The notes beneath the pieces are model-generated. The model did not search any database, was not told where the DNA came from, and saw nothing but the letters and a program-made list of their open reading frames with translations. A stretch of 41,736 nt of DNA from a virus. Its lineage: Duplodnaviria > Heunggongvirae > Uroviricota > Caudoviricetes. The position numbers were made by a program, and so were the translations under genes. The stretch's first letter is position 1. Each line of letters starts with the position of its first letter. Below are positions 1-4,225 of the stretch, piece after piece. Location: positions 1 through 41,736 of the IMG/VR virus record IMGVR_UViG_2529292910_000010. One strand, written 5' to 3'.

Positions 1-249
1 ATGCGTATTGAAATCTGCATAGCCAAAGAAAAAATGACTAAAATGCCAACCGGTGCTGTGGATGCGTTAAAGGAAGAATTAACCCGACGCATCAGTAAAC
101 GTTATGACGATGTAGAGGTGATCGTAAAAGCTACCAGCAACGATGGCCTTTCTGTTACGCGCACCGCCGATAAAGATTCAGCTAAAACTTTTGTTCAGGA
201 AACTCTGAAAGATACCTGGGAGTCTGCTGACGAGTGGTTTGTTCACTAA
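1..249 (+). CDS. DinI-family protein (DNA damage-inducible protein I-like)
   Basis: 82-aa ORF; C-terminal TWESADEWF motif and overall length match DinI family as recalled; common prophage accessory gene. Confidence 0.75.
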
Positions 250-384
250 TTAGCACGTAAAATCTGTAACGGCTGGAAATCATTCAATACTCGCACTATC
301 GGAAGTTCACCAGCCAGCCGCGGTACGTTCTTACATACGATGTACCGCTGTTCTCTTTACGATTTATAGCTGTACTGGTGAATT

Positions 385-717
385 ATGAGCAATCTGAATC
401 CATGCATGACGTGTGGTGCCTGTTGTGCATTTTCCGCGTCTCTTTTTACTGGGCAGAAGCTGACGATGCTGGCGGAAAGGTTTCGGTCAGTCTCACTGAG
501 CAAATATCTCCTTTTCATCGCTGTATGCGCGGCACCAATCAGAAAAATCCCCGATGTGGCGCTCTTGCCGGCCCCCCCCCCGGAGAAAACCGCATATTGC
601 TCTGTTTACAAAAACCGTCCGTCCACATGCAGGGAATTCGCAATGTCCGGAGAAAATGGCATCGCGAATGAAGCATGTAACCGCGCACGGGAAAAATATG
701 GATTTCCCAAAATCTGA
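385..717 (+). pseudogene. YkgJ/UPF0153-family cysteine-cluster protein, reading frame broken twice at homopolymer runs
   Basis: N-terminus CMTCGACC and C-terminus YxxRPxTCREF lie in the frame of 385..717, but the conserved middle ([15 protein letters not shown]...NPRC.ALAG) is only readable in the overlapping frame of ORF 378..671; shifts occur at a T-run near 440 and at the C10 tract 572-581. Confidence 0.55.
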
Positions 718-825
718 ATATTCTCCGCCGTGCAAAAATGCGAACAACATCACTTCACTAATCAGCCTGATATGGCATACTTAGCACGCTAACTATGATA
801 ACAAACTAATACCCTAAAACTCATG

Positions 826-852
826 GTTCCGGGACTGGTCGTGGTCCCGTTT
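826..852 (+). terminator. Rho-independent terminator after ykgJ-like gene
   Basis: hairpin cgggac-N8-gtcccg followed by a run of 8 T. Confidence 0.6.
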
Positions 853-858
853 TTTTAT

Positions 859-1467
859 TCAGCCAGCAGGCCATCCGACAGCATAACTGCGGATCGCCTT
901 CAGGTCTGTCAGCGCCTCAACCTCGGCTTTCATCTGCAACTGCCGTGTATTAATCTCCACTCCCTTCGCAAACATCGCCTGCTCTGTCGCATCTGCCAGC
1001 GCAATTATCTCCGCCGCCGTCACCGGCACCACATTATTATCCCCGTCGGTCCAGGCAAAACCTTCCGGAAGACGGTTATTCTCTGCCATCAGGCGTGTCG
1101 TGCTTATCCTGGACAACGTCTTCTTGCCGTAATCCCAGTTCCTTCCGTTGAATTCCATCACGTATTCCATATTCTCCTGCACATCACGCCAGATATTAAT
1201 CTCTTCCCGTTTCGCCGCCTTTGCCGCTTCCAGTACTGCTTCCGTGGCAACAAAGGCACTCACGCTTCCGTACGTTCCTGCTGTCAGCCCAGACCACAAT
1301 GCTTTTCCGTGTTCTGTATTATCCGTTTCCGTTGCAGTATACGGCAGCCATACCTGTTCCCCTTTTTCATTCACCGCGTCTTCAAACTGCACCTCACAGT
1401 TTATCCCGCCATATTCGTTGCTGGCTGCATTTCGTACTGCAAGAATCTCTTTTCCCTTATCCACCAT
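859..1467 (-). CDS. hypothetical protein downstream of side-tail-fibre remnant (possible tail fibre assembly/chaperone)
   Basis: ORF track 859..1554; start trimmed to the in-frame Met just after the stf-frame stop at 1476; function assigned by position only. Confidence 0.35.
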   Translation of the reverse strand: MVDKGKEILAVRNAASNEYGGINCEVQFEDAVNEKGEQVWLPYTATETDNTEHGKALWSGLTAGTYGSVSAFVATEAVLEAAKAAKREEINIWRDVQENMEYVMEFNGRNWDYGKKTLSRISTTRLMAENNRLPEGFAWTDGDNNVVPVTAAEIIALADATEQAMFAKGVEINTRQLQMKAEVEALTDLKAIRSYAVGWPAG

Positions 1468-1475
1468 GACCTCCT

Positions 1476-2550
<1,075 letters not shown>

Positions 2551-4215: not shown

Positions 4216-4225
4216 AAACCGGGAT

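What the first reader, a model, noticed from the sequence alone, without database searches (positions are those of the whole stretch)
385..717. ykgJ-like gene interrupted by two compensating frameshifts at homopolymer tracts, including a C10 run
The conserved N- and C-terminal Cys motifs are in one frame and the conserved middle in another; the switches coincide with a T-run (~440) and the ten-C tract at 572-581. Long poly-C tracts are classic slipped-strand phase-variation sites but also classic sequencing-error sites, so this is either a phase-variable or pseudogenised locus or an assembly artefact.
Basis: seen in the sequence. Interest (0 to 1): 0.4.

Follow-up and report, generated by a model that had tools for sequence, protein, structure and literature searches.

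The report
Decayed prophage ykgJ copy, variable poly-C
This is a broken copy of a small cysteine-rich gene (ykgJ) carried at the end of a defective E. coli prophage, inactivated by an inherited one-base loss and containing a run of C's whose length differs from strain to strain; it is an ordinary decaying gene, not an assembly error or a working genetic switch.

Summary
Window 385-717 is open in one frame (110 aa), yet codons 17-69 are out of frame relative to intact prophage ykgJ alleles.

The two frame-changing lesions are:
- loss of one T at 430-433 (T4 instead of T5);
- gain of one C at 590-591.

The C10 tract (572-581) lies between them and is an in-frame +3 variant of the usual C7. An intact allele with T5 and C10 exists (WP_198798526.1, 110 aa).

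T4 is inherited: at least 20 independent assemblies carry it, and RefSeq labels them 'frameshifted'. Window 1-589, including T4 and C10, is 100% identical to an independent IMG/VR contig. The rest of the window shows no homopolymer-length errors. A wholesale assembly artefact is therefore very unlikely.

The extra C is unique to this window. It sits at the crossover between two prophage lineages and cannot be verified without reads.

The poly-C run is truly hypermutable: C6 to C11 among copies with zero flanking substitutions. In this copy no tract length can restore the native protein, so it is drifting, not switching.

Verdict: a pseudogene in a tail-deleted prophage. Low interest.

The parts
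1..249 (+). DinI-like gene (82 aa). It is the left-hand neighbour and part of the dinI-ykgJ' end module of the prophage.
   Evidence: PF06183 DinI, E=1.1e-19. The same arrangement is annotated in L001 and L003.
250..384 (+). Intergenic region homologous to the chromosomal ykgJ-ecpE intergenic region. It is the type of segment described as the secondary attachment site attB-in-PP_2 in lambdoid prophages.
   Evidence: Window 192-701 aligns at 84% to the chromosomal ykgJ locus L069. Nakamura et al. 2021, PMC8112680. That it equals attB-in-PP_2 is inferred and was not aligned to their sequence.
385..717 (+). ykgJ-like ORF: 333 nt, 110 aa, open in one frame, but a pseudogene. Codons 17-69 are read out of frame.
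   Evidence: Pfam PF03692 scores 30.4 bits in two pieces as-is, against 42.5 bits full-length after two single-base repairs.
430..433 (+). T4 run. It is a one-base deletion relative to the T5 of intact alleles and is the first, inactivating frameshift.
   Evidence: Alignments. T4 is shared by L001-L004, L028-L034, L038-L040 and L154-L156. The exact 71-mer occurs in 6 complete genomes.
433..591 (+). Out-of-frame segment (codons 17-69). The native reading survives in the frame of ORF 378-671.
   Evidence: 45 residues differ, and 28 of the 63 positions conserved at 90% or more are destroyed, including the invariant Cys58.
572..581 (+). C10 homopolymer. It is a hypermutable tract and an in-frame +3 variant of C7 (Gly-Pro-Pro-Pro-Gly in the native frame).
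   Evidence: C6 to C11 among relatives, with zero flanking substitutions between C6, C9 and C10 copies. An intact T5+C10 allele is L149. L034 has the identical T4+C10.
590..591 (+). CC where all other alleles have a single C. This +1 insertion returns translation to the native C-terminal frame. It is unique to this window.
   Evidence: The pattern has 0 hits in metagenome contigs and viral contigs. No exact match in 5,426 complete E. coli genomes. It lies in the crossover interval 585-614.
615..622 (+). CCGTCCGT direct repeat, intact here. One unit is deleted in most T4 alleles.
830..856 (+). Stem-loop plus T7 tail. It is a terminator-like site between the convergent ykgJ' and DUF4376 genes. 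The T tail is T6, T7 or T8 among relatives.
   Evidence: scan; length variation.
859..1554 (-). DUF4376 tail-fibre-assembly-type gene, the right-hand neighbour. It marks the gene's position at the tail end of the prophage.
   Evidence: PF14301, E=7e-17. Zero differences from L005.

Best explanation
Window 385-717 is a prophage-borne paralogue of ykgJ (PF03692, CxxCxxCC zinc/iron-chelating domain). It sits in the dinI-ykgJ' module at the tail-fibre end of a lambdoid E. coli prophage, and it is a pseudogene.

Relative to intact prophage alleles it has exactly two frame-changing lesions. A T5 run has lost one T (now T4, 430-433), and one C has been gained at 590-591. Codons 17-69 are therefore translated in the wrong frame, which eliminates the conserved core ([24 protein letters not shown]).

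The C10 run between the lesions is a replication-slippage hot spot. It arose when GGAACTCCGGG (Gly-Thr-Pro-Gly, the chromosomal state) mutated to GGCCCCCCCGG (C7). It changes length much faster than the flanks accumulate substitutions. On the intact backbone it is mostly C7. On the already-dead T4 backbone it drifts freely from C6 to C11.

The window's allele is a mosaic. Positions 1-589 are identical to one T4/C10 lineage, and positions from 592 on match the intact-allele lineage. The extra C lies in the crossover interval.

Shown: the lesions, their inheritance, the tract polymorphism and the mosaic structure. Inferred: that the frame restoration is fortuitous rather than selected, that the 110-aa product is non-functional, and that slippage is the mechanism of tract change.
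For: - Lesions: mapped against the intact alleles WP_032169753.1 and WP_198798526.1.
- Repair test: two single-base repairs give a full-length PF03692 match (42.5 against 30.4 bits) and 102/110 identity to the intact C10 allele.
- Damage: 28 of 63 positions conserved at 90% or more in 78 species are destroyed, including the invariant Cys58.
- Inheritance: T4 is present in at least 20 independent assemblies, which PGAP annotates 'frameshifted'. Window 1-589 is identical to L034, including T4 and C10.
- Assembly quality: 0 gaps in 14,986 b and 3 gap-opens in 14,853 b, with 125 homopolymers of 5 or more unaffected.
- Tract mutability: C10, C9 and C6 copies have 0 substitutions over about 610 nt, as do C8 and C7 copies.
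- No frame preference: T4 alleles fall in all three frame classes, with roughly one third restoring the C-terminal frame, as neutrality predicts.
- General decay of the family: only about 18 of 60 IMG/VR loci are intact. The others are frameshifted or are N- or C-terminal remnants.
- Defective prophage: the tail genes J, lom and stf are deleted.
Against: - The extra C at 590-591 is seen in no other sequence and cannot be verified without reads.
- Two of the three long G/C runs in the window (C10, C8) differ from the nearest relatives' lengths. This fits either true mutability or length-dependent miscalling.
- The ORF is open and keeps the N- and C-terminal Cys motifs, so a residual or new activity of the 110-aa product is not formally excluded.
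- Some tract-length differences among public assemblies could be sequencing noise. Against that, identical lengths recur in independent genomes.
Confidence: 0.8

Rival explanations
1. Sequencing or assembly artefact. One or more of the three indels (T4, C10 length, extra C) is a base-calling or polishing error, or the chimeric 5'/3' structure is a misjoin between two prophage copies in the same genome. The true gene would then be either intact or a simpler T4 pseudogene.
For: - Long homopolymers are error-prone.
- The extra C is unique and lies exactly where similarity switches from the L034 type to the L005 type.
- E. coli genomes carry a median of 2 and up to 8 copies of this region, which invites misassembly.
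- The C8 at 24504 also differs from its relative.
Against: - T4 and C10 are reproduced base for base over 589 nt in an independent contig, and T4 occurs in at least 20 assemblies.
- There is no homopolymer discrepancy in 125 other runs of 5 or more across about 30 kb.
- The same dinI-5' plus L005-like-3' arrangement exists in complete O104:H4 genomes, so the mosaic is natural.
- Even if the extra C were an error, the gene would remain a T4 pseudogene.
Confidence: 0.12
2. Functional phase-variable (contingency) gene. Slippage in the C10 tract reversibly switches expression of a useful product on and off.
For: - The tract is polymorphic (C6 to C11) among near-identical copies.
- On the intact T5 backbone, C7 and C10 are ON and C8 is OFF.
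Against: - In this copy the upstream T4 frameshift means no tract length restores the native protein.
- C10 is in frame relative to the intact allele, and the frame change is at 590-591, not in the tract.
- Intact alleles are overwhelmingly C7, about 21 of 24 listed. That looks like purifying selection against length change rather than an evolved switch.
- T4 alleles show no frame preference.
- The literature search found no report for this locus.
Confidence: 0.04
3. Programmed recoding. Ribosomal frameshifting or transcriptional slippage at the T run and near the C tract produces the native YkgJ-like protein from the two-frame gene.
For: C10 is long enough for some RNA-polymerase slippage (general knowledge). 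The native middle frame is still open.
Against: - Intact single-frame alleles are the norm in 78 species and in other prophages.
- T4 is too short and is not a canonical slippery site.
- The two-frame arrangement is not conserved. Other T4 alleles end in different frames.
- The second shift site (AAAACCGC) is unique to this window.
Confidence: 0.01
4. A new functional small protein. The frame-restored 110-aa product, with its native Cys-rich termini and a novel middle, is expressed and selected.
For: - The ORF is open.
- The frame was restored independently in several T4 alleles: the window, the O104:H4 86-aa ORF, and the C6/C9 alleles with the CCGT deletion.
Against: - Restoration frequency is about one third, as chance predicts.
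- The restored products differ from each other.
- The exact protein is absent from 5.8 billion protein clusters.
- The prophage is degenerate.
Confidence: 0.03

Closest known systems
Prophage 'YkgJ family cysteine cluster protein' alleles WP_032169753.1 (109 aa, C7) and WP_198798526.1 (110 aa, C10), found in potB-site lambdoid prophages of E. coli
   Same: - Same gene and same position next to the DUF4376 tail-fibre-assembly gene.
- The 3' part from 592 onward and the downstream 1.3 kb are nearly identical to L005.
- The repaired translation is 102-104/110 identical.
   Different: The window copy has T4 and an extra C, so codons 17-69 are scrambled. Its 5' half and upstream flank come from a different, dinI-linked lineage.
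RefSeq pseudogenes annotated 'YkgJ family cysteine cluster protein; frameshifted' in E. coli 55989 (EC55989_RS29525), cM8a, NMBU-W12E19, JKHS016, O111:H21 15A, JE86-ST02 and O104:H4, plus IMG/VR contig IMGVR_UViG_2526164670_000018 (L034)
   Same: - The same inherited T4 frameshift and the same poly-C tract, at C6 to C11.
- L034 is identical to window 1-589.
   Different: Most of them also carry the 4-bp CCGT deletion and a different 3' end. None has the extra C at 590-591. O104:H4 lacks the poly-C run and has a 68-bp deletion.
Chromosomal ykgJ of E. coli (PF03692 / UPF0153) and its orthologues across Enterobacterales
   Same: 84% nucleotide identity over window 192-701, including the upstream intergenic region. 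The Cys motifs are the same.
   Different: The chromosomal gene has GGAACCCCGGG (Gly-Thr-Pro-Gly), no long C run and T5, and it is intact. The window copy is prophage cargo and is broken.
attB-in-PP_2 segment of lambdoid prophages (Nakamura et al. 2021, PLoS Pathog, PMC8112680)
   Same: [quoted passage not shown] Stx-phage records match window 254-474 at about 84%.
   Different: That work concerns the intergenic att sequence as an integration target, not the state of the ykgJ ORF. I did not align their 96-bp attB to the window.
Homopolymer contingency loci of Neisseria, Haemophilus, Campylobacter and Bordetella (for example PMC1891110)
   Same: An intragenic poly-C/G tract of 8 or more whose length differs between very close relatives and changes the reading frame.
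   Different: Here the gene is already inactivated upstream. Intact alleles are mostly fixed at C7. No within-culture switching or phenotype is known. E. coli is not known for this type of switch (own knowledge).

Membership tests
YkgJ family / Pfam PF03692 (CxxCxxCC putative zinc- or iron-chelating domain) | N-terminal CxxCxxCC motif | tested here: met
   Residues 7-14 are CMTCGACC in the ATG frame. These positions are invariant in 78 orthologues.
YkgJ family / Pfam PF03692 (CxxCxxCC putative zinc- or iron-chelating domain) | Full-length domain match in a single reading frame | tested here: not met
   The as-is protein scores 30.4 bits in two pieces, the best covering profile positions 51-85 only. 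The repaired protein scores 42.5 bits over positions 1-85, and intact alleles score 45-46 bits.
YkgJ family / Pfam PF03692 (CxxCxxCC putative zinc- or iron-chelating domain) | Conserved central core ([19 protein letters not shown], invariant Cys58) | tested here: not met
   28 of 63 positions conserved at 90% or more are lost in the translated frame. They are still encoded in the other frame.
Pseudogene (decaying gene copy) | Frame disruption relative to intact orthologues that removes conserved residues | tested here: met
Pseudogene (decaying gene copy) | Lesion inherited or shared across independent genomes, so not a sequencing error | tested here: met
   T4 occurs in at least 20 assemblies. 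Window 1-589 is identical to L034. The extra C at 590-591 is not shared.
Pseudogene (decaying gene copy) | Further independent lesions accumulating in the same lineage | tested here: met
   The lineage shows the CCGT deletion, the 68-bp deletion in O104:H4, tract drift from C6 to C11, and many truncated remnants in IMG/VR.
Simple-sequence-repeat contingency (phase-variable) locus | Long homopolymer within the ORF or promoter | tested here: met
   C10 at 572-581.
Simple-sequence-repeat contingency (phase-variable) locus | Tract length polymorphic among very close relatives | tested here: met
   C6, C9 and C10 copies have 0 substitutions in about 610 nt, as do C7 and C8 copies.
Simple-sequence-repeat contingency (phase-variable) locus | Tract-length change toggles an otherwise intact ORF between ON and OFF | tested here: not met
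   In the window the T4 lesion lies 140 nt upstream, so no tract length yields the native protein. C10 is in frame relative to the intact allele. On the T5 backbone of other strains, C7 and C10 are ON and C8 is OFF, but about 21 of 24 are C7.
Simple-sequence-repeat contingency (phase-variable) locus | Reversible high-frequency switching within a clonal population, with a phenotype | not testable with these tools
   This needs reads or cultures.
Programmed frameshift / recoding site | Two-frame organisation and shift sites conserved among homologues | tested here: not met
   Homologues are single-frame. T4 alleles end in different frames. The second shift site is unique to the window.

The most novel reading that the evidence does not exclude
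The poly-C tract of the intact prophage ykgJ paralogue could be a genuine slipped-strand ON/OFF switch in E. coli, a species generally thought to lack homopolymer contingency loci. On that reading C7 and C10 would be ON and C8 would be OFF, and the window's copy would be a burnt-out descendant of the switch. The tract was created from Gly-Thr-Pro-Gly by three substitutions. It varies between otherwise identical copies, and OFF variants exist on the intact backbone.
Probability: 0.1. Interest if true: 0.5.

Novelty: new member of a known kind. Interest (0 to 1): 0.15.

Why it matters
The main value is practical.

- **Annotation trap:** two compensating frameshifts leave a clean 110-aa ORF that still passes the Pfam gathering threshold (30.4 bits against 23). 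A gene caller will report it as an intact YkgJ-family protein, although half of its conserved core is scrambled.
- **A natural mutational hot spot:** the locus documents a long G/C homopolymer in E. coli prophages that ranges from C6 to C11 among copies with identical flanks. It could serve as a fast-evolving marker for closely related strains. It also cautions against reading every homopolymer-length difference as sequencing error.

Biologically it is an ordinary decaying cargo gene in a defective prophage.

Tried and rejected
- **Same allele elsewhere:** nothing found. The 110-aa protein is absent from the 5.8-billion-cluster protein search. The 24-mer spanning the extra C has no hit in metagenome contigs or viral contigs. 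The best match in 5,426 complete E. coli genomes is 96.7%.
- **PHROGs and PADLOC on the intact protein:** no hits, so there is no phage-function or defence annotation to lean on.
- **Promoter scan:** no convincing sigma-70 site upstream of the gene. The only site, at 772-799, is downstream and at chance level.
- **Literature:** 'ykgJ' gave only the attB-in-PP_2 context. The search for homopolymeric tract, prophage, E. coli and phase variation gave nothing on this locus.
- **C10 as the second frameshift site:** considered and rejected. Alignment to the intact T5+C10 allele shows the tract is in frame.
- **General homopolymer miscalling in the assembly:** considered and rejected after the whole-window indel and run-count control.
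- **Method notes:** my first regular-expression tally of tract lengths missed many alleles and was replaced by alignment. Genome contigs returned almost only chromosomal orthologues. These were useful for conservation but not for tract variation.

Full report
**What is in the sequence**

Window 385-717 (+) is a single open reading frame of 110 codons. Its N-terminus ([16 protein letters not shown]) and its C-terminal 41 residues ([41 protein letters not shown]) match the YkgJ family, PF03692. The middle does not. The family's conserved middle ([53 protein letters not shown]) is encoded in the frame of ORF 378-671. The gene is not interrupted by a stop.

**Where the frame actually changes**

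I aligned the window to intact prophage alleles:
- WP_032169753.1, 109 aa, in L005, L006 and L007;
- WP_198798526.1, 110 aa, in L149.

Three length differences appear:
1. T4 at 430-433 where intact alleles have T5 (-1).
2. C10 at 572-581 where most intact alleles have C7 (+3, in frame).
3. CC at 590-591 where every other allele has one C (+1).

Strain S19-651 carries T5 + C10 as an intact 333-nt gene annotated as a protein. Relative to that real allele, the window differs by exactly two indels, the lost T and the gained C. The second switch is therefore about 10 nt downstream of the C10 tract, not in it. The first is the T4 run at 430-433, not the unchanged T5 run at 443-447.

Adding one T and removing one C gives a protein that is 102/110 identical to WP_198798526.1. 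It has a full-length PF03692 match of 42.5 bits, against 30.4 bits in two pieces as-is.

**What the lesions destroy**

I compared orthologues from 78 species (loci, aligned). Of 63 positions conserved at 90% or more, 28 fall in the scrambled codons 17-69. These include the invariant Cys58 and the invariant FRVS-YWAE, GG, R-M-GT and G motifs. A functional YkgJ-type fold is very unlikely.

**Artefact or real?**

- *T4 is inherited.* It is present in cM8a, NMBU-W12E19, O104:H4 strains, 55989, JKHS016, O111:H21 15A, JE86-ST02 and eleven IMG/VR contigs. The exact 71-mer occurs in six complete genomes. PGAP labels these genes 'frameshifted'.
- *T4 and C10 are reproduced independently.* Window 1-589, including both, is 100% identical to IMG/VR contig L034.
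- *The assembly is clean overall.* Against its closest relatives it shows 0 gaps in 14,986 b at 99.2% identity and 3 gap-opens in 14,853 b at 98.9%. Those regions hold 125 homopolymers of 5 or more and 12 of 7 or more, none with a length discrepancy.
- *The extra C is unverified.* It is found nowhere else and would need reads to confirm.

Even if the extra C were an error, the gene would remain a T4 pseudogene.

**The poly-C tract is a genuine hot spot**

The ancestral sequence at this point is GGAACTCCGGG (Gly-Thr-Pro-Gly). It is seen in the chromosomal ykgJ, in L012/L013 and in O104:H4. One prophage lineage converted it to GGCCCCCCCGG (C7).

Alleles found:

| Backbone | Tract | State | Examples |
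|---|---|---|---|
| T5, intact backbone | C7 | intact | many |
| T5, intact backbone | C8 | frameshifted | SHP24, JNEC-KY204 |
| T5, intact backbone | C10 | intact, +1 Pro | S19-651 |
| T4 with CCGT deletion | C6 | dead (T4) | 3 copies |
| T4 with CCGT deletion | C7 | dead (T4) | 3 copies |
| T4 with CCGT deletion | C8 | dead (T4) | 6 copies, one reading CCCTCCCC |
| T4 with CCGT deletion | C9 | dead (T4) | 2 copies |
| T4 with CCGT deletion | C10 | dead (T4) | 1 copy |
| T4 with CCGT deletion | C11 | dead (T4) | 55989 |

L034 (C10), L038 (C9) and L039 (C6) have zero substitutions over about 610 aligned bases. So do L155 (C8) and L156 (C7). Tract length therefore changes much faster than point mutation. 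The same lengths recur in independent genomes (C8 four times, C6 three times), which argues against pure sequencing noise.

**Why this is not a working phase switch here**

- The T4 lesion lies 140 nt upstream of the tract, so no tract length can restore the native protein.
- T4 alleles fall in all three frame classes. About one third restore the C-terminal frame, which is what chance predicts.
- On the intact backbone about 21 of 24 listed copies are C7 (match lengths). That looks like selection against change rather than an evolved switch.

The tract is best seen as a mutational liability. It sometimes kills the intact gene (C8), and it drifts once the gene is dead.

**Mosaic structure**

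- Window 1-589 equals L034, the T4/C10 dinI-linked lineage.
- Window 592-1554 equals L005, the intact-allele lineage. It has 0 differences in the DUF4376 gene and differs only in the T7/T8 terminator tail.
- The last L034-type marker is A584, and the first L005-type marker is CCGT at 615-618.
- The unique extra C at 590-591 falls inside that 30-nt crossover interval.

Complete O104:H4 genomes show the same pairing of flanks, so the mosaic is natural. Whether the extra C arose during recombination or repair, or is a coincidental indel, cannot be told.

**Context**

- The gene lies between a DinI-like gene (1-249) and a convergent DUF4376 tail-fibre-assembly gene (859-1554), with a terminator-like hairpin at 830-856.
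- The same module sits at different chromosomal sites in other strains: next to btsS, potB, yecD, tRNA-Ser/hyaA, and a HAD/NUDIX hydrolase pair. It is therefore prophage cargo.
- Window 192-701 is 84% identical to the chromosomal ykgJ locus, including its upstream intergenic region. Nakamura et al. 2021 (PMC8112680) describe prophage segments derived from the ykgJ-ecpE region as the secondary attachment site attB-in-PP_2.
- Stx-phage records retain only window 254-474. About half of the IMG/VR loci are N- or C-terminal remnants. The ORF is evidently not what is being maintained.
- The prophage is itself defective. At about 1915 the 3' part of the tail-fibre gene is fused to the first ~216 codons of J, which removes most of J, lom and the 5' part of stf.

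**Verdict**

This is an inherited, compensated-frameshift pseudogene of a prophage ykgJ paralogue, containing a truly hypermutable poly-C tract.
- It is not an assembly artefact as regards T4 and C10.
- The extra C is unverified.
- It is not a functional phase-variable gene in this copy.

Interest is low. The points worth keeping are the annotation trap and the naturally variable C6-C11 tract in E. coli prophages.

Noticed in passing
window ~1555-2550 (junction near 1915): The prophage is tail-defective. Window 700-1917 matches the DUF4376 gene plus the 3' collagen-like-repeat part of the tail-fibre gene (99.2% to L005). It then jumps to the first ~216 codons of gpJ (99.1% to L007 7489-8274). 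Relative to L007, about 5.8 kb is missing: most of J, lom and the 5' part of stf. ORF 1732-2550 (-) carries only the FNIII-A_GpJ domain.
   Followed up: partly
window 192-249 and L069 1308-1365: The chromosomal ykgJ upstream region of E. coli aligns with the last ~55 nt of the prophage dinI-like gene as part of one 84% alignment. The chromosomal ykgJ-ecpE spacer therefore seems to contain a dinI 3' remnant. This raises the question of which direction the ykgJ module moved between chromosome and phage.
   Followed up: no
window 24504-24511: This is the second-longest G/C homopolymer in the window. It is C8 here and C7 in the 99.6%-identical relative L008. By L008 annotation it lies in an intergenic stretch between an HTH gene and a small hypothetical gene. 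It is another length-variable C run.
   Followed up: no
window 850-856: The T tail of the terminator-like hairpin between ykgJ' and the DUF4376 gene is T7 here. It is T8 in L005, L003 and L004, and T6 in L039, so this run also varies in length.
   Followed up: partly
window ~24983-26751: The cargo slot near the Q antiterminator differs from the closest relative. The window has a DUF6731 protein (25251-25964, PF20505, E=3e-7) plus a 147-aa ORF with no Pfam hit (25968-26411). L008 and its relatives carry instead a pair that some records annotate as 'nucleoid-associated anti-phage protein' and 'anti-phage protein'. This may be an exchangeable defence-gene hotspot.
   Followed up: partly
L036 and L037 (IMG/VR), gene at 1501-1771: A much more divergent ykgJ-like copy, about 77% identical, also has T4 instead of T5 at the same run, plus other degenerate features. 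The T5-to-T4 loss has probably occurred more than once, or it has spread by gene conversion.
   Followed up: no
L003 (O104:H4 C227-11) 1636-1896; protein P0001: The outbreak-lineage O104:H4 copy has T4 and the ancestral AACTCC in place of the poly-C run. A 68-bp deletion restores the frame and gives an 86-aa ORF. PGAP splits it into a pseudogene fragment plus a 'hypothetical protein'.
   Followed up: partly
window 4216-4220: A 5-bp insertion (AAACC) relative to L007. Mapped onto the L007 annotation, it lies in the short spacer between the C40-peptidase and minor-tail-L genes. It is the only non-homopolymer indel in about 15 kb of conserved structural genes.
   Followed up: no
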